Positions 6,585-64,000 of a stretch of DNA of 64,000 nt are shown piece by piece (the first letter of the stretch is position 1; every line of letters begins with the position of its first letter). Under the pieces are notes generated by a model. It saw only the letters and a program-made list of their open reading frames with translations, did no database searches and was not told where the DNA came from. The stretch comes from Cyanidioschyzon merolae. Lineage: Eukaryota. The position numbers were made by a program, and so were the translations under genes. The DNA lies in assembly GCA_000091205.1 (NCBI GenBank), contig AP006498.2; one strand, given 5' to 3'.

Positions 6585-6619
6585 GCGCCACGACCAGCTC
6601 GCTATCCTGCATATGCTGC

Positions 6620-7367
6620 GTTGCAGGATCCGCCTGATCTTTTTCTGCACGATTCGTCACGGGCGATATCGAATACGGACCAGGACGATCCGCTTTCAAG
6701 CGCCGATAGTGTACACACATGGCTACGCCATCGGCTTCGATCATCCCAGTGAATACCTTTTGCTTGCTGGCTTTGAGACGCTTGAAGTCGAAGATATTCA
6801 TCCAGTGCGTCTCCCCGTTTTCACCGGTGAACTCCTCCGTGCTGACATCGAACTCCGGGCTGATCTCTCTCATGATCCCGTAAAGGACGCCGGAGTCGAT
6901 TGTCACAAAATGTGACTTGATGTTGCACAACGGAACGACGTTGAAGCGCTTACCCATTAGGAAAGCATCCCGTCTCTCCGACTTTTCATTTTTTCCCCGA
7001 CTCAGCTGCTCTTCGGCGTTGCGTTCGAGTTCTCGGTTCCGAAACAAGAAACAGCTTAGGATGACGGGATAACATCTTTTTTTCATTTCTGATACATTTT
7101 CTACGGGATTGACTGGCCCAAAACTGCACGGTGCTCCTGTATAGCCGCACGGATTACAGAAGCTTCATTTGTGCTGCTGTGTGACGTCTTCTTGTCGACG
7201 AATTCGATCTCCTGTCCACTCTGGCGATCGTTCGTGATACAATTGATGATGCCCCACATCCCTTTGCGCGAGATGCCCGGGTAGAGCGCAAAGATAGATC
7301 GTACCACGAAGCGTTCGAGGTTCACGGTCAGATGGTTCTTCAGGTTCGTCAGGTACTTCATGGGCAC
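6620..7367 (-). pseudogene. Truncated Fanzor-like ORF fragments of copy 1 (ORF A 7101..7367 and ORF B 6620..7086). The RuvC domains are missing.
   Basis: The proteins are about 93% identical to the copy 2 ORFs 26371..26637 and 25244..26356. Similarity ends before the GADPEN RuvC-I block. Confidence 0.7.
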
Positions 7368-8768
7368 TTAGAACTAAATATTCGAGTCATGCCTGTATCG
7401 AGTACCGTTGAAGCGGTACTTGGGGCATTTTTCGTGGAGGGCATATACTCGCGCATTTCGCTTCTACGCTTCCCCCGTGCCAAACATCAAGTGACGAATA
7501 AAGGTCTTGTCGAAAAATTCTTCCGGAACCTCTTCTGTTTCCATGCCCGTCACGTCGCGATACATATCCCTCGCGATATGCATCAGTCCTACGGCAGCGT
7601 CTCATACACTCATAGAGTGCGCCTCGAAACGGGTTCTGATGGCCTCTTGGGGCTTTTCCCTGTGCGGTTCTTTGATGTGTTTCAGAAGACAGGCTTTCAC
7701 CAGCATCTCGTAATATGATCGTCTTTCTCGCATCCATTGACGTCGGGCATCCCGCTGTCGCTTCTTCGACCTGTCTCGTTCCGCTTTGCTCGGCTCTGGT
7801 TTTCATTTTTCTCCGGCAGCCGGCGACGCCGGGCCTCCAGCATCCTCCACTTCCATTTCCATTACTTTCCATTGCTATGATAAGAATGCACTTTGGAAGC
7901 GTCTACTGTAAACTACGAAAAATCACTTGACTAGAGTACTGTAAGGGCTGAAACACGAATGAATCGCAAGACTATACTTTGCTATGACGTCAACGCAAAT
8001 ACGACTTGAACCTAAAGTACAACAACAAGTTAGCGAATGATCAGGATCGCAATTCCCTTCAAAAGCGAGATACGCGTCGAGTCTGATGCCTTCCAGACAC
8101 AGACGTGAGCGTAACGACAGCATTAAATGGAACAAAGAATAGAAACTCACTACTAACTAGCAATCCGATAGGAATTTCGTTTCCCACTACGATCGACGTT
8201 AAAAGGGGGAAAAGCTTGCCGTATCTTCGAAGGTTGATCTTCGAGGTGGAAAGTCTCGCGAGCCGGACGAATCCCCAGTGCTTGTGCTTCGTGCTCCACC
8301 CAGAGTCAGGTGATTTGGCGAGATCTGAGCAACTAATCCACAACGCAGTTTATTCTCGAACTAGGGGCAGTTGATGTGCCTCTGGGCGTCGCCCTGGTCG
8401 CAGTGGACTCTTAGTATATTGCTGCGCGCTGCCGCAGACAGACGTACTGTCTGCGCAGCTTGCGGACTCCCAGAATGATGATGTACGCCGACTCCGTGTC
8501 GATTGCAACACATCTCGAGCCGACGCCCTCAGTGGTACGGAAAAACCGTTCTGTCTCCGTGCAGCACCCGCTTCAGCGGTATAAGCGCTACGGCGAGTGC
8601 TCACGGCAGGCAGTCGTCGCAGGATAGAACATACGAAACGACCAGCGTATCCCAGAGGAATTGTAAGTAATGGAACCTGGAAGTAGGGTGCAGCATGGTG
8701 GACGATCACATGAATCTTAAAGCCCATCCCGGATTTCGGACTCCTTGGTCCATGGAAACGTTTTGTCA
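6620..8768 (-). mobile_element. Fanzor/TnpB-like nuclease element, copy 1. It is 3'-truncated and keeps only the 5' module, the leader and the N-terminal half of the ORF. It abuts the stop codon of the transporter gene.
   Basis: Region 6620-8093 is about 97% identical to 25880-27350 of copy 2. Region 8093-8768 is homologous to the 5' module of the other copies (same GAGATCTGAGCAAC and ATGGAAC.TGGA blocks). Homology stops about 35 bp after the transporter stop at 6584. The 5' motif block ATAGCGCGGTCGATAC... is deleted. Confidence 0.7.
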
Positions 8769-27900: not shown

Positions 27901-28045
27901 AATAGAACGTACGAAATAACCAGTACATCCGATAAAAAGTACAAGTCATGGAACTTGAAGGTAGCGTGCACCATGATGGATACGTTCACCGAATGCCAAT
28001 ATCTAATCACGGAATCAACGATGAATGGTCAATGTACGTTTTCTA
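24950..28045 (-). mobile_element. Fanzor/TnpB-like nuclease element, copy 2. It is full length and is the least damaged copy.
   Basis: The 3' end GTCTGCACGTCGG lies at about 24950. The three ORF segments are 25017..25229, 25244..26356 and 26371..26631. The 5' motif CCAGATATGGAGATGCGGGTATCGACCGCGCTAT lies at 27362-27395. The 5' module (GAGATCTGAGCAGAAC...ATGGAACTTGAAG) runs from 27590 to 28045. Confidence 0.75.
25017..26631 (-). pseudogene. Fanzor-like RuvC nuclease gene, in three segments. RuvC-I is [16 protein letters not shown] (Asp near 25852). The IDEFRAS block with Cys/His residues lies near 25336. RuvC-III is [13 protein letters not shown] (Asp near 25124). There is a single frameshift between 25229 and 25244, and a 10-bp gap relative to copy 3 between ORF A and ORF B.
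   Basis: The motif order and spacing are as in TnpB/Fanzor. The frameshift maps to GAGGTTATATAAAAAC, where the alternative frame continues as ...[19 protein letters not shown], matching copy 4 (...AIKKYGPLTEEQMETRAKL). The first ATG of ORF A is at 26631. Confidence 0.7.
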
Positions 28046-35679: not shown

Positions 35680-36310
35680 AAGACGCGTTTCCACGGATCA
35701 GGGGATCCCAGATTGCCGGATGGACGGGTATTGGCATTCGGGAATGCGTCCAGGATGCTGCAGCCTATCTCCAAGTTCCATTGCTTGTACTTCCTCTCGG
35801 AAATACTGGTTGTTCTGTGGGTTCTATCGTGAACAGAGTGCCTGCGTCGCTGCTCCCGCCGTAGCGTCTATATCGCTGGAGTGGATGCAGCACGGAGATA
35901 GAGCTGTGCTTTGTCGTACCACTGAGGGTATCTGTTTGAGGAACGCTTCACCTGAAACGGTGTCGGGATACATAGTGAGTTTGGGAGCCAGAAATCTGTC
36001 CAGACAAGCCTAGTGCCTGCGACAGCTCGAATTGATATTCTGGGCGTCCACTGCGACCCGGGCGACGCCCAGATGCAGCGGAACTGCCCCGAGTCTCAGA
36101 GTCAACTGCGTTGCGTACGAGTTGCTCAGATCTCGCTAGAGCACCGGGCACGGAGGAGAGCATGGAGCACGAGCCTGGCAGACTCGCGCGGCTTGCAGGA
36201 TCTGCTACCTATACGGTAAACTGTCGACAATATGGAAACATTTTCCCGCTTTTAACGTTTATCTCAGAGGACGAAAGAAATCGTTGTATCGTTGCTAGTT
36301 GGTGAATCGT
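35680..36310 (+). repeat. Left arm of a long inverted repeat of about 650 bp. It is about 98% identical to the reverse complement of 38850..39537, and equals the 5' module of the element.
   Basis: Sampled about 200-nt stretches have only 3-4 mismatches. The ORF track shows mirror-image ORF pairs (36013..36219+ versus 38982..39188-, and others). Confidence 0.85.
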
Positions 36311-36791
36311 TTTTGCTCTTTGTTTGCATAGCGCGGTCGATACGCGCACCTCCATATCTGGTAGTTACGAGATGCGACGCGCATCTCGCCGTTGAAGGGA
36401 AACGCTATCAGGATAATTAGCAAGGTGTTCGACCCTACAAGTTGTACTTGCGTTAAAGCCATCGCAAAGTGTATTCCCTAAATTCAGTTGTGTTCCACTC
36501 TCAAAATAGTATATTCATATGCGTTTTCGCAGCTTACAACAGAAACCTTCGAAGTGCCTTTTATTTCAAAAATAAAAAAGTTATGGAACTGGAATTTGAG
36601 GATCCCGGAGGGCCGGTGTCGCCGACTGCCGAAGAAAAATGAGAAGCAGAGCCGAGCAAACAGGAACTGGAAAAGACGAACAAGCAGAACGGGGAGGCCC
36701 GACGTCCGGAGTTGTACGAAAGACGACAGTACCACGAGATTGCGGAGTAAGCCGGATTTCCTAAACATATCATGGACCGTACAAGGAAAAG

Positions 36792-38700
36792 TTGCAAGAT
36801 GCCATCAGAACCCGTGTCGAGTCCTTCTCTAAGAGTGTTCGTAACGCTTCTTTAGTGCTGATGCATATGGCGAGGGAGATGTATTACGACGTTACAAACG
36901 TCAAAACAGTCGAGGTTCCGCAGGAATTTTTAGACAATACCTTCATTCATCACCTGAAGGTTGGCGCAGGGGAAGCATCGTGGGGAAATGCGCGAGTACA
37001 TGCCCTCCAGGAAAGTTACACTGAATACCGCTTCAAGGTTACTCAATACAGGGGTGACTCGCGTATCTACGAGTACGGGGCGATGAAGTACCCCACGAAC
37101 CCGAAGAACCATATGTTCATGGACCTCGAACGCTTCATGATACGCTCCGTCTTCGCACTCTGCCCGGGTCTCTTGCGCAAAGCGATATGGAACATTATCA
37201 ATAGCATCACGGACGATCGCCAGCATGAACAAGAGATGAAATTCGGTAACAAGAAGAAATCACACAGTAGAAAGAATGAAGACTCTGTGATCCGTGCGGC
37301 TCTACAGGAGCACTGTGCGGTACTGGGGCTGCCGAATCCAGCAGAAAAGGTATCAGAGTTAAAGAGAGTTAAAGAAAGATTTTATATCTTCTTCCTGCTG
37401 TATTTCGTGTTTCCGAACCGAGAGCTCGAACTCAAGGCGGATATGGAGCAAGGTGTGGAAGAGCATGACGAGTCGTAGAAACGGAAGGCTGCGCTTCTTG
37501 GCAAGCGCTTCAATGTCATTCCATTATGCGACGTCAAATCACATTTTGTGATCATCGACTGCAGAGTCCTTTACAGCATCATGAAGGAGATCCGTCTGGA
37601 GTTCAATCTAAGCAACAGGGGGTTTACGGGTGAAAATTGGGAGACGTGCTGCAAGAAGATCCTCGATTTCAAACGCCTCAAAACGAGCAAGAATAAGGTA
37701 CTCACAGGCATCATCGAAAGCGATGGAGTAGCGAAGTGTGTACACTGTCGGCGGTTGAAGGTTGATCGTACTGGTCCGTCTTCCTTGTCGCCCACGGCGG
37801 AGCATGAACATGAGAAACTGGAGGATCTTGCGACGCAGGGGGTGCATGAGAGCGACTTTGTCGTTGGCGCGGACCCTAAGAATACGAATCTCGTAACCGT
37901 CGCAGCACCCAAGCGTGCGGAGGATGTTAACGACGGCAACTTACGTCATAACGACGTGCGTCTTTTAAAGTTCTCGAAAGCGAGATATTACCTAGAATCG
38001 GGAAAAATGAATGCAAGGAAAATAATTGAGACATGGAATGCAGGAGTGAAAGAGTACCTGGAAGCTGTGATCCAGGTGACGAGCCGCGGTGCGGAGTTTC
38101 AAGCTTTTCGGGAATTCATGAAACCTCAAACTGCTCATCAACAGGAGCGGTGGAAAGCGTATATCAAGCTCTGGTGGGCACATCAGCGAATGAACCTGGA
38201 CGGAGGCAAGCAGCTTGCATTCACTAACTACATCAATCAGTTAAGCACCCTCTAGGAAGACAAGGGTCAAATGCTCGTAAGAGCGTACGGAGCAGGGCGC
38301 TGGATAACCAAAACGGGAGCATACCTGCTCCGTTGACGCAGGGAGTACAAGGAGTGAGCATACCGTTCTGTCACAATACCGATAGATAAGTTCCGAACGT
38401 CCTATATACACCATGAACTGGGGGTGTACACGTCATTTGGTCGAGATGCAAAAGTGCCACCGGAGCGCTGGGGATATAGACAAGTACGGAGCGCTGACGG
38501 AAGAGCAAAGGGAAGGGACACGGAGGGCACAAATTTGAGGTCTACTTGCACTGGTGTATATAACCGGCTGCGGCAAGAAACGGATGGATTTTGTGAATCG
38601 TGACTTTAATTCAGTCGTCAATAAAGAGAGCTGTGCGTCGATGGATACAAGACCCGCGGAGCTGGCGCGACCCAACTTTTTGGGGCAACCGCTCAGGGTT
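36792..38700 (+). pseudogene. Fanzor-like nuclease gene of copy 3. It has a frameshift between 37478 and 37548 and further shifts after 38255. RuvC-I is FVVGADPKNTNLVTVAAP. The RuvC-III equivalent is mutated (RDFNSVVNK instead of RDFHAAINI).
   Basis: It aligns block-for-block with copy 2. The N-terminal region (QDAIRTRVESFSKSVRNASLVLMHMAREMYYD...) is open here, whereas copies 1 and 2 carry four nonsense codons in the same region. Confidence 0.65.
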
Positions 38701-38849
38701 AAATTATATGAGAGAAACTGAAGCCAGGAACAGGCGGCCGGTCGAGAAAGGCTGTTAGACGTCTGCACGTCGGTTTATACACACGCACGGTATCGGCGTG
38801 ATGGACGGAACGGCACGTCTAACAACGGGAGAGCGAAAGCAAGTGATGT

Positions 38850-39537
38850 GCAGCTATAGCGATGATCCACATGGTTGAAAAGGAACAGAGACGCACGATC
38901 CACTAGCAACGATACAACGATTTCTTTCGTCCTCTAAGATAAACGTTAAAAGCGGGAAAATGTTTCCATATTGTCGACAGTTTACCGTATAGGTGGCAGA
39001 TCTTGCAAGCCGCGCGAGTCTGCCAGGCTCGTGCTCCATGCTCTCCTCCGTGCCCGGTGCTCTAGCGAGATCTGAGCAACTCGTACGCAACGCAGTTGAC
39101 TCTGAGACTCGGGGCAGTTCCGCTGCATCTGGGCGTCGCCCGGGTCGCAGTGGACGCCCAGAATATCAATTCGAGCTGTCGCAGGCACTAGGCTTGTCTG
39201 TACAGCTTTCTGGCTCCCAAACTCACTATGTATCCCGACACCGTTTCAGGTGAAGCGTTCCTCGAACAGACACCCTCAGTGGTACGACAAAGCACAGCTC
39301 TATCTCCGTGCTGCATCCACTCCAGCGATATAGACGCTACGGCGGGAGCAGCGACGCAGGCACTCTGCTCACGATAGAACCCACAGAACAACCAGTATTT
39401 CCGAGAGAAAGTACAAGCAATGGAACTTGGAGATAGGCTGCAGCATCCTGGACGCATTCCCGAATGCCAATACCCGTCCATCCGGCAATCTGGGATCCCC
39501 TGATCCATGGAAACGCGTTTCGGAAAAGCGAAAATCT
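38850..39537 (-). repeat. Right arm of the inverted repeat. It is a second, inverted copy of the 5' module placed immediately after the copy 3 tail. It may be the right TIR of a TIR-type transposon carrying the nuclease gene.
   Basis: See the left arm. The outer end CCATGGAAACGCGTTTCGG mirrors the left terminus. Confidence 0.8.
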
Positions 39538-54007: not shown

Positions 54008-55095
54008 CTCACGCGCCTCGTTCGCCTTCAAGCTAGGTAAGCGAGATGGAGCGCAGTATCGATGATGCTGCTGAAGCGCGCGCGCACGCGTGCCCTTGTG
54101 GTGATGGACCAGATCTCGCCGCAGCCTGCGGGAAACTCCCGCCTGCGATGTTGCCTATTTGTCACGATTTGACGCACGGGAAATGCTACCCAGGGCAACC
54201 ATAACCTCAGGTTTCCAACTCTGCCTCCACTTTCATGTATAGCCAAGATGGAACGGTTGCGCTCTCGCCAAGACACGATTCAGCCCGCAGCGAAGCGAGA
54301 CCGTGATTCCGTTGATAGCTGATCCTCTGCTTTTTTATACCAGTATCGTGTTCAGTAGCTGGTTTCTACTGAACCCTGTCGACTATGAAATCAATCCGCC
54401 TGGAATAAACCCAGAAAATCTCGTGCAGCGCGAGTTTTTGCCATCGTGAATGTGACGCGCCAAATAGCGCGTGCCTCGCAAAAAGAACTGAGCGCTGCGT
54501 TCCGCGCGTTGCGGATCAACGCGCACGATAACGCAGTACGCGTTTCCTTCATGTAGACACGGAGCGCCAGCCCTCGAGCGGGCCGCTCCCGACGTTCATT
54601 CTGCAGTGAGAGGAATGCCACATTCTAAAAGTGCCCTGCAAAGCAGTCCAAGTCCAGAACTGCATCAAATGCTCGATGGTTTCCGTCGATGAGTCACCAC
54701 TGCAGATCCCAAATCAATACGCCTCACAGCCCGTAGCGCATACCTTTAAACAGCAAGCACCTTCACCACGTTGCACTGCACCCTCGATACGCTCATCGAT
54801 ATGAGACGCCCACCAGGCTCGATGCATCAACGATGCAGGCGCGTGAAGTCGTTAACGAAGGAACGATCAGCGCACCCGATACCGCTTGTAACTCCTGAGC
54901 AGCGCCCGCCGTGCTGCAGATGCGCGAATCACAGGCGCCGTGGCCCAATCGGCCGTTCGTCTGCGAAGCAATGGCGGATTGCCGAAAGACTGCCGCATCG
55001 TCGCTCATTTGGGGGGACAATTGGTGGCAGCGCGTACGAGTGAAGACAACACACGGGTATCTGCTGAACGCTTGAAACTCGCTTTATTCGAACTT

Positions 55096-58065
55096 ATGGA
55101 GTCAGAGCTTCCTTGTATAGTGGTTGGTGGCGGTGTTGCTGGTCTTGGAGCGGCTTGGGCGCTTCACGATGCTGGACACCGCGTGTGCGTGCTGGAGGCG
55201 GATCCGACGCACCTCGGAGGGCACGCCTACACCATGGAAGTGCCTGTCTCGGGCTCCAGCCAAATACCTATAGATGTTGGCTTCATTGTGTATAACACTG
55301 AAGCGTACCCGAACTTGGTCGCCTGGTTCGACGCGCTGGGCGTAGAGACGGAGCCTTCGGACATGTCGTTCTCCGTGTCAGTACCTCGCGGAGCAACCGG
55401 CGGCGCTCGTCTGGAGTGGTCGAGTGATAGTCTCTGGACTTTATTCGGCGATAGGCGCAACGTGTTATGTCTGCAGTTTTACGGCATGTTGCGGGATCTG
55501 CTGCGATTCAATAAGGAGGCTATTGCGCTTCTGGAGACACTACCGCTAGAGCTCACGCTCGAACAGTTCCTGGCACAGGGACGTTATTCTGACGCATTCA
55601 GGGACTGGTACCTGACGCCAATGGTTGCTGCCGTATGGTCGAGCTCCCCCAGTGAAGTGCTGCATTTTCCTGCGCGATCCATCCTGGCATTCTTCCGGAA
55701 CCATGGATTCCTCCGGATCTTTGGGCGTCCACAATGGCGCACCGTTCGCGGCCGCAGTCAGGCCTACACCAGCCGAGTGATGCAGGCCTTAACCAGTCCA
55801 TCACAGGCCAATGGTGTGGTATCTGAAGTTCGACTGGGCGCGCGCGTGACCCGCGTGCTTGAACGAAAACAGGATAAGGCTGTCGTCGTCGTCGAGCTAG
55901 AGGATGGTCAAGTTGTGCGCGGCTCTAGAGTAATCTTCGCCACGCACGCTGACGAAACATTGCGACTGCTCGCAGAATGGGCGACACCGGAGGAACGCGC
56001 CTTTCTATCCGCCTTCGAATACGTCGAAAACGAGATTGTCATCCACCGCGACGCGCGCTTCATGCCCCAACGACGTAGTCTGTGGAGCTCGTGGAACTTT
56101 GTCCCACAGGAGGACGGCCGCGCACAAGTGGAGGCAGCGTCAACATGCAAGGTCCAGGTCACGTACTTGCTCAATCGTTTACAGAATCTGCCGAAAGACG
56201 TGCCGCCTCTGTTCGAGACACTCAACCCAGCATTTCCGCCCGAAGAGGAGCTGGTACTCGCTCGTCTGCGTCTTGCGCATCCGATGCTGACGCGGGAAGC
56301 GGTTCTTGCCCAGACTCAGTATCGCGAATCGCTTCTGCGAGACGGTTGCAAACGAGATATTTATTTCGCAGGGGCGTACTGCGGCTACGGCTTCCACGAG
56401 GACGCCCTGACATCCGGCCTGGAAGTGGCACAGTGCATCACAGAGCTGCCGATGCGATCGCTGCTAAAGCAAACCGCGTCGCCAGCTGACAACAAGCACC
56501 GGCGAGCGTTGAACAATCACCAGGGTGCATTACCCCCGGCACGTGTATCTCTCTCCGGCACCGTTGGTCGAGCAGTTCACGCAAACGTGCTCAGCTATCT
56601 CCAACGCTCAATACGTTACGGTTCACTCATTGTGGTCCTGCCTGACGGTACAGAGCATGTTTGTGGCACGCTCAAAGTTAGCGCATCGGATAACCCGCAC
56701 CTTCACCGTTTACTGGTTACATACGGGCTGAACGAGTCGCCCGTGCGCGTGCATATCCGACGATACGACTTTTTTTGGCGCGTTGTCTCCGGTGCCGATA
56801 TCGGGTTCGCCGAGGCCTTCATCGCCGGCGACTGTGATGTCGGCGGCTGGACGTCGCGACACGGCGCTGTGTACACCTGCGCTGGCACCGAGCTAGTGCG
56901 TCTGTTCAAGTTGTTTATCCTGAATCGGGACGAGGGAGCGCTTTCTCCCGCCAAACTCGGTCTCGCAGCGCGCCTAGGCATGTGGTATAACGCAGCCCTG
57001 CACCTTGTATGGCGACGGAATACCCTCCGAGGCAGTCAGAAGAACATTGAATCGCATTATGATTTAAGCAATGACTTGTTTGCTACATTTCTAGGCGATC
57101 TCTGGGTATACTCTTGCGCGCTGTGGGCGCGTCCCGATATGGATTTGGACGAAGCCCAGCGAGCCAAACTGCAGCGCATCATCGAGAAACTCCGCCTCGA
57201 TACCGCGGAGTCTGTGCTGGAGATTGGTTGCGGCTGGGGTGCGCTCGCGATAGAGATTGCCCGCCAGTATCCCAGGGTGCGTGTGTTGGGCATTACGCTC
57301 TCCAGAGAACAGCTGCGGCACGCGCAGGCGTGGGCGGCTCGCGTTGGTGTCGCTGATCGTGTCACTTTCCGTCTGGAGGATTATCGAACGCTGACCCGAA
57401 TGCCAAAAGAGGAAGTGGCGCGTGGCGACGCCGCACAAGCTGGGCGCCCGGTGGATTCGCGTAATGGCCTGATGAAGACGGCAGCCGTCGGGGGCCACGG
57501 ACGCCACGACCTCACCTTCGACCGGATAGTCAGCATCGAGATGCTTGAAGCGGTAGGGCATGAATTCCTCGGGGACTTTTTCGCCGCATGTGATCGCCTC
57601 TTGTCACCGAGTGGACTTGTTGTGGTGCAAGTCATTACAACGCCGGAAGTGCGTTACGAAAGCTACCGCAAGTCATCGGACTTTATCAACAAGCATATCT
57701 TCCCCGGCAGCTGTTGCCCTTCGTTCCATGCGCTGGTTCATGCCTGTGCAGTGGCTGCACCAGCGCTCAGCGTAGTCGATGTCGAGAGCATTGGTGTTCA
57801 CTACGCACCAACGCTGGCGTCTTGGCAGCAGCGTTTCATGGAAAACCTTGGTCGAGTTCGCCAGCTAGGATTCTCTGAGGCATTTATACGCAAGTTTCTC
57901 TACTATTTGAGTTACTGCGAGGCGGGCTTTGCGACTCGGACGTTAGATGATCTGCAAATCGTCTTTTCGCGCCCTGGAAACGTACTGAGCCTGGGGGGCG
58001 AGCCCCGAGTCTCCACCGTAGCCAGGTACCGAGAGCGCGGCGCGCTCGACAGCTCAACGAGCTAG
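55096..58065 (+). CDS. FAD-dependent amine-oxidase-like domain fused to a cyclopropane-fatty-acyl-phospholipid synthase (CFAS, SAM-dependent methyltransferase) domain. This is the plant-type cyclopropane synthase architecture.
   Basis: The N-terminal Rossmann motif is CIVVGGGVAGLGAAWAL. The C-terminal half has the CFAS hallmarks VLEIGCGWGALAIEIARQYPRVRVLGITLSREQLRHAQ and FDRIVSIEMLEAVGHE. The ORF track start at 54940 is a GTG, and the first ATG is at 55096. Confidence 0.75.
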   Translation: MESELPCIVVGGGVAGLGAAWALHDAGHRVCVLEADPTHLGGHAYTMEVPVSGSSQIPIDVGFIVYNTEAYPNLVAWFDALGVETEPSDMSFSVSVPRGATGGARLEWSSDSLWTLFGDRRNVLCLQFYGMLRDLLRFNKEAIALLETLPLELTLEQFLAQGRYSDAFRDWYLTPMVAAVWSSSPSEVLHFPARSILAFFRNHGFLRIFGRPQWRTVRGRSQAYTSRVMQALTSPSQANGVVSEVRLGARVTRVLERKQDKAVVVVELEDGQVVRGSRVIFATHADETLRLLAEWATPEERAFLSAFEYVENEIVIHRDARFMPQRRSLWSSWNFVPQEDGRAQVEAASTCKVQVTYLLNRLQNLPKDVPPLFETLNPAFPPEEELVLARLRLAHPMLTREAVLAQTQYRESLLRDGCKRDIYFAGAYCGYGFHEDALTSGLEVAQCITELPMRSLLKQTASPADNKHRRALNNHQGALPPARVSLSGTVGRAVHANVLSYLQRSIRYGSLIVVLPDGTEHVCGTLKVSASDNPHLHRLLVTYGLNESPVRVHIRRYDFFWRVVSGADIGFAEAFIAGDCDVGGWTSRHGAVYTCAGTELVRLFKLFILNRDEGALSPAKLGLAARLGMWYNAALHLVWRRNTLRGSQKNIESHYDLSNDLFATFLGDLWVYSCALWARPDMDLDEAQRAKLQRIIEKLRLDTAESVLEIGCGWGALAIEIARQYPRVRVLGITLSREQLRHAQAWAARVGVADRVTFRLEDYRTLTRMPKEEVARGDAAQAGRPVDSRNGLMKTAAVGGHGRHDLTFDRIVSIEMLEAVGHEFLGDFFAACDRLLSPSGLVVVQVITTPEVRYESYRKSSDFINKHIFPGSCCPSFHALVHACAVAAPALSVVDVESIGVHYAPTLASWQQRFMENLGRVRQLGFSEAFIRKFLYYLSYCEAGFATRTLDDLQIVFSRPGNVLSLGGEPRVSTVARYRERGALDSSTS

Positions 58066-58585
58066 TGTGCCGGTGTCGTTCGCAACACTCTGTCCGACGA
58101 GGTCCAGCGTAGTGACCCATGCGTGAGCCGCGAGACGCTGTGTAGCACGCCGGTACGCATGGCGGGAGTCAGGCGTTCGGACTTGCGCACATGTCAAGTG
58201 CAGTCTCCGCGATACGCGTAATGCAGTCCTGGGGATGCACGCGTGCTCACGGTATGGAGGGCTGGTCTGACTGCAGCGCGCCCTGACAGTCTTGTTCCGC
58301 AGCACAGTACCTGAACTCGGATGGGAGGCTGCAACTTGGCGCTCTCTCACTCCTTTGATGAGATAGCGTATTCGCAAGCCAATGTATCGTTTTCGTGAAC
58401 AACTCGATTCTGGAGGCTACGGCAGCCGGGCATGCGCATACGAAGGATTCGTGTGCAGCTTGGGGCGCTTTTGGCTCGATCGCTGGCACCGCAGCGCAGT
58501 GTCGAGCGCGGTACCGCCTGCATGCATTCGTACACACGTACGCTGTACATACTTGGAATGAAAATGCAATATTTCCCGAAAGTGT

Positions 58586-59929
58586 TTACATGTGCGACGC
58601 GGGCACCTCATGTGGGCGAGCGCGCCGTCCCCGCGGTCGACGCATTACGAGTCGCACAGGCCGCAACAGAACACGCACCAGCGCCCGCAACAAGTTGACC
58701 AGATATATGCCTGGCTGCGCAATAGCAACGATAAGCGCAATGAGCCGCGCAAGCAATGTTTGCGTGCCCTGCGGATGCGGATAGAACGGAAATCCCCGAA
58801 AGTACAGTTTTGCGGCTTCGTAATGAATAGCAACCATCGCCTGCAGGGTTATCAGCGGATATACGAGCAGGCAGAGGACCATATTCATTGCGGTCAACTC
58901 AACCCGATGTAGTTTCAAACTGGCACCAAAAAACTTTTGGAATCCGCTTGGGGATGCGGATGCATCTCCGTTCGCTGTCGGTTGCCGCTGCAGGAGCTCA
59001 ACGAAGACTCGCAGCTGCCGGCACCCTGGCTGAGAGAATAACCATCTGTACTCGATGCCCTCCATCGCAATAAACGGTGAAACATGGAATTCCTTCGGAT
59101 GCACGACACTGATCACAAAGCACGGCGAGGAGGGCGTGCCCCCGTTCAGCGACGCACCGCTATCGACTCGCGACATGGGTCGCGGGCACCATCGCCAAGC
59201 CGAGGCGGAAGAAGTGCCCGTGGAGGCCGCCGCCGCCACCTCCTGCGAAGAGGCCCCTTCGACTGCCGCTGCCGTTGTTGTCACCGAGGAGCACGCGTGC
59301 CGCTTCTCGTTGCCAGCGAGTTTGTGATAACGATCGCCATCGGTTGCCGGCTGGATACAATCCTCGTTTTCGTCGTCTGGTGGCATCTGGGCTGCATCGT
59401 TGAGACTATTCGTCCGCGAAAACGGTGGCCATGCAACTGAAGAATATTCTCTCGCACGAAGCACATATGCATGCTGTTCAAACCATGGGATATTATTCAC
59501 CTCAGCCACAATGTATTCGACATTTTTCCCGTCTTCGTCGAGAATATAATAGAAGGATACCGGGTTGAAGGCGATGCCGAGGTAAGTGAGGTGCGTCAGC
59601 AAACAAACCCGTCCTTTGGGGGCACTTTCAAGGCGCAGTTCACGCTGCACATAGCGCCGCACAGCAACAGCGAGTAGTTCCGCTTCAGAACCAGCTCCAA
59701 GTGCTGACTTTTCAGGGCCCAGCTCTCGCAGGTGGTGCTTGCTGCGAAACCATGCCACTGCTGGCAACCAGCGCCTTGCACTAAAAAGCGGCCACCAAGG
59801 AAACCGCCAACGCTCCCTCGCCAACTCGTCCAAGTCCAAATAAACCATAAAAAGTGCATAGGAGAACTGGTACGCAGCCGGGTAGCGCCGTGAGTGCGTG
59901 ACGCTCCCACAGTAGAGCGCGGAACGCAT
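58586..59929 (-). CDS. DUF1365-family protein, the bacterial partner of the CFAS/amine-oxidase operon. It carries a low-complexity insertion. The ORF extends upstream to 60337, but that extra region is a translated (CAG)n run.
   Basis: MRSALYCGSVTHSRRYPAAYQFSYALFMVYLDLDEL...GRVCLLTHLTYLGIAFNPVSFYYILDEDGKNVEYIVAEVNNIPWFEQHAYVL matches the DUF1365 consensus (G.V.H.R..P..H.F.Y..f...lDLDEL ... LLT.lr.lGy.FNPvsfyyc...l.a.vaEV.NTP.gErh.Yvl). It is convergent with the CFAS gene, with 520 bp between them. Confidence 0.65.
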   Translation of the reverse strand: MRSALYCGSVTHSRRYPAAYQFSYALFMVYLDLDELARERWRFPWWPLFSARRWLPAVAWFRSKHHLRELGPEKSALGAGSEAELLAVAVRRYVQRELRLESAPKGRVCLLTHLTYLGIAFNPVSFYYILDEDGKNVEYIVAEVNNIPWFEQHAYVLRAREYSSVAWPPFSRTNSLNDAAQMPPDDENEDCIQPATDGDRYHKLAGNEKRHACSSVTTTAAAVEGASSQEVAAAASTGTSSASAWRWCPRPMSRVDSGASLNGGTPSSPCFVISVVHPKEFHVSPFIAMEGIEYRWLFSQPGCRQLRVFVELLQRQPTANGDASASPSGFQKFFGASLKLHRVELTAMNMVLCLLVYPLITLQAMVAIHYEAAKLYFRGFPFYPHPQGTQTLLARLIALIVAIAQPGIYLVNLLRALVRVLLRPVRLVMRRPRGRRARPHEVPASHM

Positions 59930-60163
59930 CGCAGCGCGCCCGGCAACGACCGACGATCGAGTCGCCCGCCAAAACGCTGTCAACGTGGATTTACTGCAGT
60001 ACCAAAACACTTGGAAGAAAGAACGAAGCACGTACGTACGCACGTAAACAAAATAGCCCTTGGCTTCGATACCAACGCGTATCACTGCAGAAGCGCCCCG
60101 GCAGACATGCGCTGAGAGGCATCCGGCATCTACGGTGTACCGCCGCCGCTGCGAGTACGCCGG

Positions 60164-60194
<31 letters not shown>

Positions 60195-60195
60195 C
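60164..60195. repeat. (CAG)n microsatellite.
   Basis: Direct read. Confidence 0.85.
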
Positions 60196-60329
60196 CGCGC
60201 CATCCGCAGGGCAGCGTACGGAGCGGCAGGCACTGGTGCGATCGCTGTCCAATGATGGGCAGTTTCTCGAAGACGAAACGTTCACGTGGACCATGGATCC
60301 CAGATTGTGGGGTAGATATTCGCGCTGGG

Positions 60330-60660
60330 GAAAGCATCCACGAATCTGTACTCTGCCTTCAAGTTCGGTTCCTTACTCTTGCTCTAGGATATTCTGGTGG
60401 TTTTGTACGTAATATCGAGCGTCGAGTGCCTGCTCTGAGTATCCACGAAACTGTACTCTGCCTTCAAGTTCGGTTACTTACTCTTGCTCTAGGATATTCT
60501 GGTGGTTTTGTACGTAATATCGAGCGTCGAGTGCCTGCTCTGAGCATCCACGAATCTGTACTCTGCCTTCAAGTTCGATTACTTACTCTTGCTCTAGGAT
60601 ATTCTGGTGGTTTCGTACGTAATATCGAGCGTCGAGTGCCTGCTCTGAGCATCCGCCGGA
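60330..60660. repeat. Tandem repeat of about 108 bp x3, derived from the 5' part of the element module (…CAAGTTCGGTTCCTTACTCTTGCTCTAGGATATTCTGGTGGTTTTGTACGTAATATCGAGCGTCGAGTGCCTGC…).
   Basis: The unit anchors ATCCACGAA(T/A)CTGTACTCTGCC recur at 60335, 60440 and 60545. The unit is homologous to the single-copy stretch CAAGTTCCATTGCTTGTACTTCCTCTCGG...GAACAGAGTGCCTGC of the copy 3 left arm. ORF 60252..60800, with three repeated peptides, is an artefact. Confidence 0.85.
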
Positions 60661-61709
60661 GCGGTTATATATCGCTGGTGCAGATGCATCATAGAGACGG
60701 AAATGCTCTGCCGTACCACTGGGGGTGTCGGCTCGAGGTATCTTTAAATCAGCACGGAATCGGAGTACGTAATCATTCGGGGAGTCAGCAAGCTGCGTAG
60801 ACATACCTACTGCCTGAGGCAGCACGGCGCGGTATACGAAGATACTACGGCAAGCAGGGCGACGCCGAGACGCAGCATACCCGCTCCTGGTCCCAGAATG
60901 AACTGCGTTGTGGACGAGTTGCTCAGCTCTTGCTCCAGCGCTAGGCATTGGGCGGGCCTGACGTACGAGCTTGAGAGACATGTCCGGCTCGCGGTGCCTA
61001 CCGCCGAAAAGGTAAACTTTCGAAACTATGCGAACCTTCTCCCCCTTTTTCAAAGTTTATCGTGGAGGGCGAGACAAATCGGTATCTCGTTGCTAGTCTG
61101 TGGATAGTTTCTATACTATTTTCTAGATAGCGCTGTCGATACGCGCACCTCCATATCTGGCAGGCATGATGTACGATGCTCATGTCGCTGTTGGAAGGAA
61201 ACGCGATCTTGATATTTCGCTTGTTGCTCTAACGGACAAGCTGTATGTGCGCTGATGTCGTAGCAAAGTCTAGCTTTTCAGTTCCATTGTGTTTCGACCC
61301 CCAAGTCTGTGTACTCAAATGCTTTTTCGCGGTTTACAGCAGAATTGTTCGAACAGCGTTCTTTTTCAAAAACATAAAAAAGGAAAGTTCTGGAAATCGA
61401 AGTGGAGGATCCTGGAGACGCAGTATCGCCGGCTGCCAGAAAAAACAAAAAACAGTGCCGAGCAAAGACGAACAAGATAAGACCATGAAGCAAAAAGGGG
61501 TGGGGTGGTCCGACGTCAGGATCTGCGCGAACGACGACAGAACGACGAGACGTTCGTGAAAGCGTGTCTTCTTGGCCATACCAAGGATCCGTACAAGCAA
61601 AAGTTGCAAGAGGCCACAAGAAACCGTGTCGAGTCGCAATCGATGAGTGTTATATAGGCGTCGTCAGGAGAAATGCATTTAGTGAAGGACATAAATCGCG
61701 ATGTGACGG

Positions 61710-63586
61710 ATGTCAAAACAGTCTAGGCTCCGGAGGATTTTTCAGCGAAAGCTTTATTCATCATCTGATGGTTTGCACAGGGAAACGTCGAGGAGAAATG
61801 AGCATGTGCACGCTCTCCACGAAAATTACGCCAAATGCCGCTTGAAGGGTGCTCGATACAAGGCTGACTCGCGTATTTACGAACACGGGACGATGAAGCA
61901 CCTCACGAACCTGGAGAATCGCGTGATCGTGAAACCCGAACGCTCCATGATACGCCCCATCTTTGCGCTGTACCCGGGCCCGTCTCGCAAAGGGATACGG
62001 GCCATCGTCGGTGGCATCACGATCGATAGTAGGCATGCGTGGGAGATCGAGTTTGTCGAAAAGAAGACATCACGCAGAAGAAAGAATGAAGGTTCTGTAA
62101 TCCGTGCGGCTACTCGAGAGCATCGTGCGGTCTTGGGGCTAGTCGACCCAGCAGAAAAGGTATCAGGATCGAAAGAAGATGAAGAAAGATGGGATCACCT
62201 CATGCTGCGCTATTTCGTGTTTTTCGGACCGAGAACTCGAACGCAAGGCCGAAAATGAGCAGGGTGTGGATGCAAATGAAGCGTCGGAGACGCGGAAGGC
62301 TGAGCTTCTGGAGAAGCGCTTCAACGTCGTTCTGTTATGCGAGATCAAGTCACATTTTGTGACAGTCGACTCCAGAGCCCTTGACGGCATCATGCAGGAG
62401 ATCAGTTCGGGGTTAGGTGTCAGCACGAACGAGGTTACGGGCGAAAACCGGGAAACTCATTGAAGGAGTATCATCGATTTCAAACTTCTCAAAACGAGCA
62501 AGAAAAAGGAATTTACGGGGATGTTCGAAAGCGATGGGGTATCCATATGTCGACACTATCGGCGCTTGAAGGCAGACCGTCCAGTTCGGCCCTCGGCTTC
62601 GTCCTCGGCGAACCATGAAGAAAACAAGGAGGCGGATCCTGCGACGCAGGAGGTGGAGGAGAACGACTTTATGGTTGGCGCGGCGAAGCATAAAGATGGG
62701 ATGGAGGCGGGTCCTTCGCCGCAGGACATAGAGGATACCGACTTGTCGCTGGCGCAGACCCCGGAAACACAAAGATCATAACTATCGCTGTGTCCATGCG
62801 TGCGGAAGATGGTAACGAGGGTAACTTACGTCGGAGAGACATGCGTCTGTGGAGGTTCTCGAGAGCAAGAGACTAAAGAGAATCCGGTATAATGAATGCG
62901 AGGAAGAACATCGAGATGTGGAATGCAGGAATGAAAGAGCACCTGGAAACTATGAGCCAGGTGACGAGCCGCGGAGCGGACTTGAAATCTTTTCTGAAAT
63001 CCATGGAGGTTCGCGTTGCTCATTGGGAGGCGCTGTGAAAAGAATATACAAAACCCCGGTGGGCTCGTCTGCGTATGAATCTGTACAGTGGAAGCAGCGG
63101 GCATTCGCGAATTTTTTCAATGAGTTGAGCGCCTTGAAGGAGGATGAAAGTCAGAGGCTCGTAGTAGCATACGGAGCAGGACGATGGAAGACCCAACAAG
63201 GGACTACGCCAGCTCCAACGACGAGAATGTATAACGGGTGTGCAAGGCGTTTCGCTACGATACCTGTAGATGGATTCCGAACGTCCTCTACACACCATGA
63301 ACTGGGCTGTACACTTCAGAGGGCAGAGGTGGAAAAGTGCCAGCGGAGCCCTGAGGCTATAAAAAAGTACGGACCGCTGACGGAAGAGCAAATGGAAACG
63401 AGGGCGAAACTTCGAGGATTGCTTGCACTAGTGCGTACAAGCGGCGACAAGAAATGTATGGAGTTTGTTAACCGAGACTTTCACGCCGCTATCAATATAA
63501 GGAGATGCGCGGTGATCGAAAGAAGACCCCCCAGAGTTGACAAGAGAGAATTTTGTGGGGGAGCCTCTCAAAGTGGAATTATATGA
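61710..63586 (+). pseudogene. Fanzor-like nuclease gene of copy 4. RuvC-I Asp is lost (FMVGAAKHKD against FVVGADPEN). The C-terminal part is intact, with RTSSTHHELGC and [13 protein letters not shown] (Asp near 63479). At least three frameshifts are present.
   Basis: Alignment to copies 2 and 3 is block by block. Confidence 0.7.
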
Positions 63587-64000
63587 GAAAAAGTTGGAAC
63601 CAGTAGTAGGTAGCCGGTCCAAAAATACTGGGAGGCGTCTGCGCGTCAGCCGGAGACCTCTTGTCTAGGGCGCGGGTCACTCGCCACTACTGAACACCGC
63701 TGGCGGCAACGTTCTTCTTTTGAAAGGCGTTTGCTTTGCTTTGTCAAATAGCATGGATGTGGTCGCTGTACTGTACATACCCATTTTTCTCGGATTTCGG
63801 ACGCGCTGGATGGACGCCTTTTCAAGTTCGATTTCTGTTTTATGCATCCACGATTCCTTGGGTAGCATGTCGGCACCGTTTGCACCGCGAGCGTGCCCGC
63901 AGACCTAAGCGCGCCTTTCCATTCTCTCGTGCACGCGGGCGGGTAGCTAGAGACCAGTTCAGTAATCGTGAAGTGAAAGAAAGCCTCGTCGGAGAACTTT

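What the first reader, a model, noticed from the sequence alone, without database searches (positions are those of the whole stretch)
54940..60337. Bacterial-style cyclopropane-lipid gene neighbourhood in a eukaryote: FAD-oxidase::CFAS fusion next to DUF1365
In many bacteria, an amine-oxidase-like flavoprotein, DUF1365 and a cyclopropane-fatty-acid synthase are encoded in one operon. Here the oxidase and CFAS are fused into one 990-aa protein (55096-58065, +), as in plant cyclopropane synthases. A DUF1365 gene lies 520 bp away, convergently (58586-59929, -). The DUF1365 has picked up a Ser/Ala/Thr-rich low-complexity insertion and a (CAG)n run at its 5' end, so it has been shaped as a eukaryotic gene rather than being contamination. 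Retention of the three-component neighbourhood suggests en-bloc horizontal acquisition from bacteria, followed by rearrangement, and a functional link between DUF1365 and cyclopropane or oxidised lipid synthesis.
Basis: partly seen in the sequence, partly recalled or inferred. Interest (0 to 1): 0.7.

Follow-up and report, generated by a model that had tools for sequence, protein, structure and literature searches.

The report
Red-alga furan-fatty-acid-type gene pair
Two neighbouring, already annotated genes of the red alga Cyanidioschyzon merolae encode the eukaryotic versions of the three bacterial enzymes that make furan fatty acids; they have stayed side by side in every hot-spring red alga examined, which makes this easily engineered alga a good place to test how eukaryotes make these antioxidant lipids.

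Summary
The window is Cyanidioschyzon merolae 10D. The 989-aa FAD-oxidase::CFAS-like fusion (55096-58065, +) and the 447-aa DUF1365 protein (58586-59929, -) are identical to BAM81709.1 and BAM81710.1, and they lie tail to tail, 520 bp apart.

The triad matches the bacterial ufaD-ufaO-ufaM furan-fatty-acid (FuFA) operon (Lemke 2020). The Arabidopsis homologues were already named UFAMD1 and UFAO1 in 2024. So the link between DUF1365 and a CFAS-like enzyme is known, and it points to furan lipids rather than cyclopropane lipids.

New findings here:
- The convergent pair is conserved in six cyanidiophyte genomes whose flanking genes differ.
- Both Galdieria species also carry, next to the pair, the cluster's second methyltransferase.
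- Cafeteria shows loose linkage. Porphyridium, Chondrus, Phaeodactylum and Chrysoparadoxa show none.
- Natural OX::DUF1365 and MT::DUF1365 fusions exist.
- The methyltransferase carries an E-E-A-Q active-site signature. It shares this with 71 of 72 operon-linked bacterial enzymes and with plant or Agrobacterium enzymes that gave no cyclopropane product. Proven cyclopropane synthases differ.

Rough trees place both genes inside red-algal clades, so there was no recent transfer. An ancient bacterial-cluster origin is plausible but unproven. The (GCA)n run lies 235 bp upstream of the start codon, not in the coding sequence. This is a new member of a known kind, of moderate interest.

The parts
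55096..58065 (+). CDS of the 989-aa UfaD-like::UfaM-like fusion protein (BAM81709.1, annotated 'probable mycolic acid methyl transferase')
   Evidence: Pfam Amino_oxidase/NAD_binding_8 plus CMAS. Identical to BAM81709.1. Orthologues show 71% identity in Cyanidiococcus, 56% in Cyanidium, about 40% in Galdieria and Porphyridium, and 36% in plants.
55096..56445 (+). FAD-dependent amine-oxidase/desaturase-type domain (aa 1-450). The GGGxxG dinucleotide-binding motif sits at aa 11-16, directly after the start codon, leaving no room for a transit peptide.
   Evidence: Pfam NAD_binding_8 at aa 9-81 and Amino_oxidase at aa 14-289. 34-40% identity to the first gene of the bacterial OX-DUF1365-MT operons. 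Closest solved structure is LkcE, E 1e-21 over aa 6-446.
56740..58065 (+). CFAS-like part (aa 549-989): CFAS N-terminal domain plus SAM methyltransferase domain. It has the VLEIGCGWG motif and the active-site signature E815/E818/A819/Q845.
   Evidence: NCBIfam CFAS models align from aa 549 but score far below their equivalog cut-offs. E. coli CFAS 6bqc matches at E 6e-44, with C139, E239, I268 and Y317 conserved and H266 replaced by Q.
58066..58585 (.). 520-bp spacer between the two convergent stop codons. It must hold both 3' ends.
   Evidence: No nucleotide conservation with relatives. The same spacer is only 26 bp in Cyanidium and 25 bp in G. partita.
58586..59929 (-). CDS of the 447-aa DUF1365 (UfaO-like) protein (BAM81710.1, 'hypothetical protein, conserved')
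59135..59452 (-). Lineage-specific, disordered S/A/P/T-rich insertion (about aa 160-265) in a loop of the DUF1365 barrel
   Evidence: Alignment A1, composition, pLDDT below 50 for aa 170-264. Present in the Cyanidioschyzon and Cyanidium lineage only.
58676..58906 (-). Two C-terminal hydrophobic helices of the DUF1365 protein (aa 342-370 and 390-418). The second lies in a C-terminal extension that is present in the red algae and Chrysoparadoxa and absent from the bacteria compared. They are a probable membrane or lipid-droplet anchor.
   Evidence: Hydropathy scan. Predicted helices H347-377 and H392-421. The bacterial sequences end shortly after the conserved HP motif.
60164..60195 (.). (GCA)10.7 triplet run, read as (TGC)n on the gene's strand, 235-266 nt upstream of the DUF1365 start codon. 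It lies in the 5' flank or UTR and is not coding.
   Evidence: TRF, sequence. The N-terminal ORF extension is not conserved. The annotated protein is 447 aa.

Best explanation
The two genes are the C. merolae members of the eukaryotic UfaD::UfaM fusion plus UfaO (DUF1365) set. This is a three-activity pathway that modifies a monounsaturated acyl chain already esterified in a membrane lipid.

By homology with the pathway worked out in Rhodobacter and Rhodopseudomonas, the steps would be:
1. The C-terminal CFAS-like domain uses S-adenosylmethionine to methylate a cis double bond, giving a methyl-branched trans-olefin.
2. The N-terminal FAD domain desaturates it, with O2, to a conjugated methyl-diene.
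3. The DUF1365 protein, a lipid-binding beta-barrel with hydrophobic C-terminal helices, inserts an O2-derived oxygen and closes the furan ring.

The product would be a methylated furan fatty acid, a scavenger of singlet oxygen and radicals, made on cytosol-facing ER or lipid-droplet membranes, since neither protein has an N-terminal extension.

Shown here: domain content, active-site signature, operon, fusion and neighbourhood evidence, and vertical inheritance in red algae. Inferred: the chemistry, the substrate, the product and the location.

The tail-to-tail gene pair has been kept throughout Cyanidiophyceae. It is most simply read as a retained remnant of a linked, ultimately bacterial-type, gene set.
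For: - Domains.
- Bacterial operon: OX -> DUF1365 -> MT in nearly all of the 80 genomes whose contigs reach far enough, with 34-49% identity to the algal domains. The extended cluster is MT2-DUF1295-lipocalin-desaturase-OX-DUF1365-MT.
- Rosetta-stone fusions: OX::MT across eukaryotes, OX::DUF1365 in bacteria (P0109, P0116) and (OX-like)::MT::DUF1365 (P0060).
- Conserved convergent pair in C. merolae, Cyanidiococcus, a JGI relative, Cyanidium, G. partita and G. sulphuraria, while the flanking genes differ between Galdieria and the others.
- Both Galdieria species add a CNMT-like MT2 that is 48-50% identical to the bacterial cluster's MT2.
- MT signature E-E-A-Q equals 71/72 operon MTs and 23/30 eukaryotic fusions. 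It also equals GhCPS3, AT3G23510/30 and the Agrobacterium enzyme. GhCPS3 and the Agrobacterium enzyme gave no cyclopropane acid on heterologous expression, and none was found in Arabidopsis tissues. Proven cyclopropane synthases read GEHH (E. coli, Lactobacillus, CmaA1/2, MmaA2, PcaA) or EEHQ (SfCPS, GhCPS1/2).
- In Chlamydomonas, CFA1, CFA2 and the DUF1365 gene are all SAK1-dependent singlet-oxygen-induced genes (PMC4067076).
- Arabidopsis UFAMD1 and UFAO1 co-localise on lipid droplets.
- DUF1365 model: calycin-like barrel, nearest to an ether-ring-forming spirocyclase.
Against: - No lipid data. No paper in the searchable library reports furan or cyclopropane acids in Cyanidiophyceae.
- The role of the plant homologues was still called 'putative' in 2026.
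- I could not align directly to the characterised UfaM, UfaD and UfaO sequences, only to operon homologues.
- In R. sphaeroides the operon-linked MT (RSP1089) is dispensable and UfaM is encoded elsewhere. 'Operon MT = UfaM' is therefore proven only for R. palustris.
- Proteins of the same architecture (SfCPS, GhCPS1/2) do make cyclopropane acids. They share the H266->Q change, so that change alone does not exclude ring formation.
- The negative results for GhCPS3 and the Agrobacterium enzyme come from heterologous hosts.
- From my own recollection, not checked here: bacterial UfaM acts on cis-vaccenate, whereas C. merolae mainly has oleate and linoleate.
- A tail-to-tail arrangement gives no shared promoter.
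Confidence: 0.6

Rival explanations
1. The fusion is a plant-type cyclopropane fatty acid synthase, as in Sterculia and cotton. Its product is a cyclopropane (or, after oxidation, cyclopropene) acyl chain, and DUF1365 is an accessory or downstream modifier.
For: Same two-domain architecture as SfCPS and GhCPS1/2, which make dihydrosterculate. Best solved match is E. coli CFAS at E 6e-44, with C139, E239, I268 and Y317 conserved. The proven plant cyclopropane synthases also carry Q at the H266 position.
Against: The residue after E239 is A and the SAM motif is VLEIGCGWG, as in GhCPS3, the Arabidopsis proteins and the Agrobacterium enzyme. GhCPS3 and the Agrobacterium enzyme gave no cyclopropane acid on expression, and none was found in Arabidopsis tissues. 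SfCPS and GhCPS1/2 have H and VLDIGCGWG. NCBIfam CFAS equivalog scores are far below cut-off, 231 against 600 and 211 against 400. The oxidase domain is not needed for cyclopropanation in cotton, so that chemistry explains neither the conserved oxidase nor DUF1365. The bacterial triad is shown to make furan acids.
Confidence: 0.2
2. The triad makes another methyl-branched or oxygenated lipid that is not a furan, for example a methyl-branched, hydroxy- or epoxy-acyl chain, or a modified non-acyl lipid. The algal enzymes would have diverged in substrate from the bacterial ones.
For: Only 33-49% identity to bacterial homologues. The MT shares the SIE...VQ pattern with MmaA4/Hma, which resolves the carbocation with water rather than by ring closure. 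From recollection, the acyl pool differs from that of the bacteria. Yu et al. suggested 'other cyclopropanated products' for the GhCPS3 clade.
Against: All three activities are retained together across eukaryotes. They are fused in several combinations. They are co-induced by singlet oxygen in Chlamydomonas. This fits conservation of the whole three-step pathway.
Confidence: 0.15
3. The neighbourhood reflects a recent horizontal transfer from bacteria into this alga, or bacterial contamination of the assembly.
For: Cyanidiophyceae are known for bacterial gene acquisitions. The nearest non-algal DUF1365 hits are gammaproteobacterial.
Against: The proteins are identical to those of the finished C. 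merolae 10D genome and are flanked by eukaryotic housekeeping genes. The pair is present in six cyanidiophyte genomes. NJ trees support a Cyanidiaceae clade at bootstrap 100 and a red-algal DUF1365 clade at 78-87, with no bacterial sequence inside. The fusion is shared with plants, green algae and stramenopiles.
Confidence: 0.03
4. The adjacency is a chance or neutral leftover with no functional meaning.
For: The genes converge, so they cannot share a promoter. They are unlinked in Porphyridium, Chondrus, Phaeodactylum and Chrysoparadoxa. By gene identifiers they are also unlinked in Arabidopsis and not adjacent in Chlamydomonas.
Against: Same orientation and adjacency in Galdieria and in the Cyanidioschyzon and Cyanidium lineage, although the other genes within about 10 kb differ. 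A third pathway-type gene is adjacent in Galdieria. Cafeteria shows independent loose linkage at 5 kb.
Confidence: 0.1

Closest known systems
Rhodopseudomonas palustris ufaD-ufaO-ufaM operon (RPA2571-2569) and Rhodobacter sphaeroides UfaD/UfaO (RSP1091/1090) plus UfaM (RSP2144): the bacterial methylated furan fatty acid pathway (Lemke et al. 2020, PMC7380195)
   Same: The same three protein families: an amine-oxidase-type FAD enzyme, DUF1365 and a CFAS-like SAM methyltransferase. They are genomically linked. The algal MT carries the E-E-A-Q signature found in 71/72 operon-linked bacterial MTs.
   Different: In the alga the oxidase and MT are one polypeptide, in the order UfaD-like then UfaM-like. 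DUF1365 is a separate, convergent gene rather than lying between them. DUF1365 has a roughly 100-aa disordered insert and an extra C-terminal hydrophobic helix. The product is not known. No ChrR/sigma-E regulation applies.
Arabidopsis AtUFAMD1 (AT3G23510) and AtUFAO1 (AT1G30130), lipid-droplet proteins proposed to make furan fatty acids (Omata et al. 2024, PMC10940516; still 'putative' in PMC13247531)
   Same: Same fusion architecture and a separate DUF1365 protein. Same E-E-A-Q and VLEIGCGWG motifs. About 36% identity to plant fusions.
   Different: The plant genes are on different chromosomes. In Cyanidiophyceae the two genes are immediate neighbours. In Galdieria the LIME1/FufM-like methyltransferase type is adjacent as well.
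Plant cyclopropane synthases SfCPS (Sterculia foetida) and GhCPS1/2 (cotton) (Yu et al. 2011, PMC3132707)
   Same: N-terminal FAD oxidase fused to a C-terminal CFAS-like domain. Q at the position of E. coli H266.
   Different: The proven cyclopropane synthases read VEH and VLDIGCGWG, where the alga and the non-producing GhCPS3/Arabidopsis clade read LEA/IEA and VLEIGCGWG. No DUF1365 partner has been described for them.
Escherichia coli cyclopropane fatty acyl phospholipid synthase (PDB 6bqc)
   Same: Best solved match for the C-terminal half (E 6e-44). N-domain plus catalytic domain. SAM motif, C139, E239, I268 and Y317 are conserved.
   Different: G236->E, H240->A, H266->Q. A 38-residue insertion lies in the MT domain. 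NCBIfam equivalog cut-offs are not reached. E. coli CFAS has no fused oxidase.
Chlamydomonas SAK1-dependent singlet-oxygen regulon (CFA1, CFA2, DUF1365 gene Cre06.g269300) (Wakao et al. 2014, PMC4067076)
   Same: The same gene families are co-induced in a eukaryotic alga, in parallel with the bacterial sigma-E response.
   Different: The Chlamydomonas genes are not adjacent. Expression data for the C. merolae pair were not available here.

Membership tests
UfaD/UfaM/UfaO furan fatty acid pathway | All three components present: amine-oxidase-type FAD enzyme, CFAS-like SAM methyltransferase, DUF1365 protein | tested here: met
   Pfam hits
UfaD/UfaM/UfaO furan fatty acid pathway | Genomic or physical coupling of the three components (operon, fusion or neighbourhood) | tested here: met
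   Operon in the 80 bacterial loci. Fusions. Conserved neighbourhood in 6 cyanidiophytes.
UfaD/UfaM/UfaO furan fatty acid pathway | Sequence orthology to the experimentally characterised R. sphaeroides and R. palustris proteins | tested here: inconclusive
   Those sequences could not be fetched. The algal domains are 33-49% identical to operon homologues from other bacteria. The literature gives 26-38% identity between the Arabidopsis orthologues and UfaM, UfaD and UfaO.
UfaD/UfaM/UfaO furan fatty acid pathway | Product is a methylated furan acyl chain whose ring oxygen comes from O2 | not testable with these tools
   Needs lipid analysis. No report found.
UfaD/UfaM/UfaO furan fatty acid pathway | Induction by singlet oxygen or photo-oxidative stress | not testable with these tools
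   Known for Rhodobacter and Chlamydomonas. No C. merolae expression data were accessible.
Canonical bacterial cyclopropane fatty acid synthase (E. coli Cfa type) | SAM-binding motif and two-domain CFAS layout | tested here: met
   VLEIGCGWG motif. NCBIfam models align from aa 549.
Canonical bacterial cyclopropane fatty acid synthase (E. coli Cfa type) | Full bicarbonate-site residue set C139, E239, H266, I268, Y317 | tested here: not met
   H266 is Q. The neighbouring G236 is E and H240 is A.
Canonical bacterial cyclopropane fatty acid synthase (E. coli Cfa type) | Score above NCBIfam equivalog cut-off | tested here: not met
   231 against 600 (NF053839) and 211 against 400 (NF008686).
Plant-type cyclopropane synthase (SfCPS/GhCPS1/2) | N-terminal FAD oxidase fused to a C-terminal CFAS-like domain | tested here: met
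Plant-type cyclopropane synthase (SfCPS/GhCPS1/2) | Motifs of the enzymes proven to make cyclopropane acids (VEH after the conserved Glu; VLDIGCGWG) | tested here: not met
   The window has LEA and VLEIGCGWG, like GhCPS3, AT3G23510 and the Agrobacterium enzyme. These motifs are a correlation across the few enzymes tested, not an established determinant.
DUF1365 (PF07103) | Pfam gathering score and conserved core motifs (FNPVSFYY, NxPWxE, FHVSPF) | tested here: met
   202 bits against a cut-off of 25.

The most novel reading that the evidence does not exclude
The cyanidiophyte pair, and the three-gene, four-domain set in Galdieria (MT2 <- -> UfaD::UfaM -> <- UfaO), is a surviving piece of a bacterial furan-fatty-acid gene cluster taken up before red algae diversified. 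It would have stayed physically linked through the whole history of the class. That would make it an ancient eukaryotic metabolic gene cluster of bacterial origin, producing furan fatty acids as a defence against singlet oxygen. It would also be the first genetic handle on the algal source of the furan fatty acids that move up food chains.
Probability: 0.3. Interest if true: 0.6.

Novelty: new member of a known kind. Interest (0 to 1): 0.4.

Why it matters
Furan fatty acids are potent radical and singlet-oxygen scavengers. By my own recollection they are found in plants, algae and fish, with fish obtaining them from algae. The only proven biosynthetic route is bacterial, and the role of the plant homologues was still called putative in 2026.

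C. merolae 10D is described as genetically tractable and has a very small genome. Here the whole candidate pathway sits in one 4.8-kb locus made of two intron-free genes. A single deletion followed by lipid analysis could show whether eukaryotes use the UfaM/UfaD/UfaO route.

The conserved linkage in Cyanidiophyceae, the extra methyltransferase in Galdieria and the natural fusions add independent comparative evidence that DUF1365 works with the oxidase-methyltransferase fusion in eukaryotes.

The E-E-A-Q versus E-E-H-Q/G-E-H-H pattern suggests a testable residue-level difference between olefin-forming and ring-forming enzymes of this family.

Tried and rejected
- I first suspected a trypanosomatid because of the long intron-free ORFs at 56% GC. 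Mixed gene orientation and the homologue list ruled that out, and the organism was then fixed as C. merolae 10D.
- tRNA scan of the window: none.
- Rfam on 54-64 kb: none.
- NCBIfam has no model for DUF1365.
- No solved DUF1365 structure by sequence.
- I tested whether the convergent downstream genes in Porphyridium and Phaeodactylum are diverged DUF1365. A profile search found nothing.
- Chrysoparadoxa and Chondrus DUF1365 genes have no oxidase or MT neighbour within about 10 kb or the contig end.
- Literature searches linking Cyanidiophyceae to furan or cyclopropane acids, or naming the C. merolae gene, found nothing. The red-algal HGT paper PMC9812998 does not mention these genes.
- I first read H266->Q as evidence against cyclopropane formation. 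The alignment in Yu et al.'s supplement showed that the proven plant cyclopropane synthases also have Q. I now rely only on the position after E239 and the SAM motif, and treat both as weak.
- The 583-aa ORF version of DUF1365, which some gene callers use, was rejected because its extension is not conserved.
- The trees are neighbour-joining on corrected p-distances. The bacterial sample was chosen by similarity to the algal DUF1365. They cannot identify a donor or settle deep branching. The eukaryote-wide clades have bootstraps of only 21-61.

Full report
**What is in the sequence.** Between 54.9 and 60.4 kb the window holds two long convergent ORFs. From the ATG at 55096, the plus-strand ORF gives a 989-aa protein. 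It has an N-terminal dinucleotide-binding/amine-oxidase domain (NAD_binding_8 at aa 9-81, Amino_oxidase at aa 14-289). Its C-terminal half matches the mycolic-acid/cyclopropane synthase family (CMAS) at E 5e-74. From the ATG at 59929, the minus-strand ORF gives a 447-aa DUF1365 protein (E 1e-59), matched in two stretches because of an internal insertion. The two stop codons are 520 bp apart.

Both translations are identical, residue for residue, to Cyanidioschyzon merolae 10D BAM81709.1 ('probable mycolic acid methyl transferase') and BAM81710.1 ('hypothetical protein, conserved'). These accessions are consecutive and lie on a 908-kb chromosome record. The window is therefore C. merolae, a nearly intron-free red alga. 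Upstream lie ordinary eukaryotic genes: RFC subunit, Rpb3-like and Utp13-like.

**Details of the observation.** The S/A/P/T-rich insertion in DUF1365 is real. It covers about aa 160-265 and is predicted disordered (pLDDT below 50 for aa 170-264). It sits in a loop of the conserved core. It occurs in C. merolae, a close metagenomic relative and Cyanidium, but not in Galdieria, Porphyridium or bacteria. The triplet run is (GCA)10.7 at 60164-60195. This is 235-266 nt upstream of the start codon shared with relatives (MRSALYCG). It is a 5'-flank or UTR feature, not part of the protein. The red-algal and Chrysoparadoxa DUF1365 proteins also carry a C-terminal extension absent from the bacteria compared; in C. 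merolae it holds a second hydrophobic helix. Neither protein has an N-terminal extension that could be a transit peptide, because the FAD motif and the DUF1365 core begin at the first residues.

**What the triad is.** I fetched 80 bacterial loci that encode a DUF1365 relative and mapped homologues of the three algal domains. Wherever the contig reaches far enough, the arrangement is nearly always the same. The order is oxidase, then DUF1365, then CFAS-like methyltransferase, co-directional and abutting or overlapping. Identity to the algal domains is 34-40% (oxidase), 34-49% (DUF1365) and 33-42% (methyltransferase). A second, more distant methyltransferase (MT2) usually lies about 3.5 kb upstream. 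In one locus the full cluster reads MT2, DUF1295, lipocalin, fatty-acid desaturase, oxidase, DUF1365, MT.

This is the operon characterised by Lemke et al. (PMC7380195). UfaM methylates cis-vaccenate on phospholipid to 11Me-12t-18:1. UfaD, an FAD enzyme, desaturates it to the 10t,12t diene. UfaO, which contains DUF1365, uses O2 to form the furan fatty acid 9M5. In R. palustris the contiguous genes RPA2571-2570-2569 are necessary and sufficient. Omata et al. (PMC10940516) pointed out that Arabidopsis AT3G23510 is a UfaD::UfaM fusion and AT1G30130 a UfaO homologue. Both are on lipid droplets. A 2026 review still calls their role putative.

In Chlamydomonas, CFA1, CFA2 and the DUF1365 gene are all SAK1-dependent singlet-oxygen-induced genes (PMC4067076).

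**Furan or cyclopropane?** The C-terminal half is most similar to E. coli CFAS among solved structures (E 6e-44). It keeps C139, E239, I268 and Y317 of the bicarbonate site, but H266 is Q. It falls far below the NCBIfam equivalog cut-offs for CFAS.

Four columns are informative, at E. coli positions G236, E239, H240 and H266. The window reads E-E-A-Q. So do 71 of 72 operon-linked bacterial MTs and 23 of 30 eukaryotic fusions. E. coli and Lactobacillus CFAS read G-E-H-H, and the bacterial MT2 class reads E-E-H-H. CmaA1 and MmaA2 also have G...H. The non-cyclopropanating hydroxymycolate synthase MmaA4 has E...Q.

The supplementary alignment of Yu et al. (PMC3132707) provides a control. The proven plant cyclopropane synthases SfCPS and GhCPS1/2 also have Q at the H266 position, so Q does not exclude ring formation. 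They do read VEH and VLDIGCGWG. GhCPS3, AT3G23510/30 and the Agrobacterium operon enzyme read (I/L/F)EA and VLEIGCGWG, like the alga. GhCPS3 and the Agrobacterium enzyme gave no cyclopropane acid on expression, and no cyclopropane acids were found in Arabidopsis tissues. This places the algal enzyme with the widespread, non-cyclopropane-producing class. The correlation rests on few enzymes and on negative heterologous results, so I treat it as supportive, not decisive.

**Synteny.** The same arrangement, fusion (+) then DUF1365 (-) tail to tail, occurs in six genomes:
- Cyanidiococcus yangmingshanensis.
- A JGI metagenomic relative.
- Cyanidium caldarium, with a 26-bp spacer.
- Galdieria partita, with a 25-bp spacer.
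- G. sulphuraria.
- C. merolae, the window itself.

Flanking genes are shared among the Cyanidioschyzon-type genomes (RFC upstream; Sec6 and VTT downstream in the relatives and Cyanidium). They are different in Galdieria. The pair has thus outlasted the surrounding synteny.

In both Galdieria species a further gene lies immediately upstream, transcribed divergently. It encodes a coclaurine-N-methyltransferase-like CMAS protein (best PDB hit 6gkv, E 1e-58). It is 48-50% identical to the MT2 of the bacterial clusters and 91% conserved between the two Galdieria species. No such gene is in the C. merolae window.

Outside the class, Cafeteria has DUF1365 5 kb upstream of the fusion, transcribed divergently, with one small gene between. 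Porphyridium, Phaeodactylum, Chrysoparadoxa and Chondrus show no linkage.

Natural fusions complete the picture. OX::DUF1365 occurs in a bacterial context (P0109, P0116). A 1,153-aa protein carries CMAS and DUF1365 domains behind an oxidase-like N-terminus (P0060).

**Origin.** The fusion is not special to this alga. Full-length homologues occur in red algae, chlorophytes, streptophytes, diatoms and other stramenopiles, Corallochytrium and others. Neighbour-joining trees with 100 bootstraps gave these results:
- The C. merolae sequences fall in a Cyanidiaceae clade (bootstrap 99-100) in all three domains.
- Red-algal DUF1365 sequences form a clade (bootstrap 78-87) beside a stramenopile clade.
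- The 35 eukaryotic or metagenomic fusion oxidase domains form one clade (bootstrap 61).
- No bacterial sequence falls within the red-algal groups.

Recent transfer and contamination are therefore excluded. An old origin from a bacterial cluster remains plausible. The family is overwhelmingly bacterial, the operon is bacterial, and up to four cluster components are still adjacent in Galdieria. However, my trees are distance-based and the bacterial sample was picked by similarity to the query, so deep nodes are weak. The bacterial order (DUF1365 between oxidase and MT) cannot be turned into the algal one by a single inversion. Secondary clustering cannot be ruled out.

**Verdict.** The architecture, the bacterial parallel and the functional coupling hold. 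The chemistry is more likely furan than cyclopropane. The coupling is already in the literature. The 'horizontal acquisition' is at best ancient and shared with many eukaryotes.

Three things appear to be new:
- The conserved gene pair across Cyanidiophyceae.
- The three-gene set in Galdieria.
- The residue signature.

I rate this as a new member of a known kind, with moderate interest. Its main value is that it offers a compact, genetically tractable locus for proving the eukaryotic furan-fatty-acid pathway.

Noticed in passing
window 60540-63650; other copies at 6599-8708 (-), 24952-27970 (-), 35746-38771 (+), 38902-39455 (-): A dispersed repeat of about 2-3 kb, with 70-77% identity between copies, occurs at least four times in the 64-kb window. 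One copy sits where relatives have Sec6 directly after DUF1365; no Sec6 or VTT gene is in the window. Its ORFs have no Pfam match, and the copy at 60.5-63.7 kb has no Rfam match. Its nature is unknown.
   Followed up: partly
window 60333-60654: A 105-bp unit repeated 3.1 times at 96% identity, at the edge of the dispersed repeat and about 400 bp upstream of the DUF1365 start. The spurious 583-aa ORF begins inside it.
   Followed up: no
L002 8742-9916 (-) and L091 6765-7922 (-): In both Galdieria species a coclaurine-N-methyltransferase-like CMAS gene lies divergently next to the fusion gene. It is 48-50% identical to the second methyltransferase of the bacterial clusters. It may be the FufM/LIME1-type enzyme for dimethyl furan acids.
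   Followed up: partly
L087 3345-4893 (-) and 10001-14357 (+): In the heterotrophic stramenopile Cafeteria roenbergensis the DUF1365 gene (three exons) lies 5 kb upstream of the fusion gene, transcribed divergently, with one small gene between.
   Followed up: partly
L086 6738-8099 (-): In Phaeodactylum a cytochrome-b5/fatty-acid-desaturase gene lies divergently upstream of the fusion gene. A FA_desaturase gene is also part of the extended bacterial cluster in L014. This may be coincidence.
   Followed up: no
L088 171-3632 (protein P0060); L090 9409-11598 (protein P0109): Natural fusions link all three activities. One is a 1,153-aa protein with CMAS and DUF1365 domains behind an oxidase-like N-terminus, from a metagenome. 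The others are bacterial oxidase::DUF1365 proteins followed by a further co-directional gene that is cut by the contig end and was not identified.
   Followed up: partly
proteins P0081, P0082 (Agarophyton, Gracilaria) and many ~950-aa metagenomic relatives: Florideophyte homologues keep the oxidase domain (39% identity). It is followed by about 470 residues with no Pfam match and no similarity to the methyltransferase domain. Some fungal homologues carry a Cox11 domain instead.
   Followed up: partly
MT-domain alignment, column of E. coli H266: The three diatoms, Rhizochromulina and the unplaced PLAT4238 sequence have E at the position where other fusions have Q and canonical CFAS has H.
   Followed up: no
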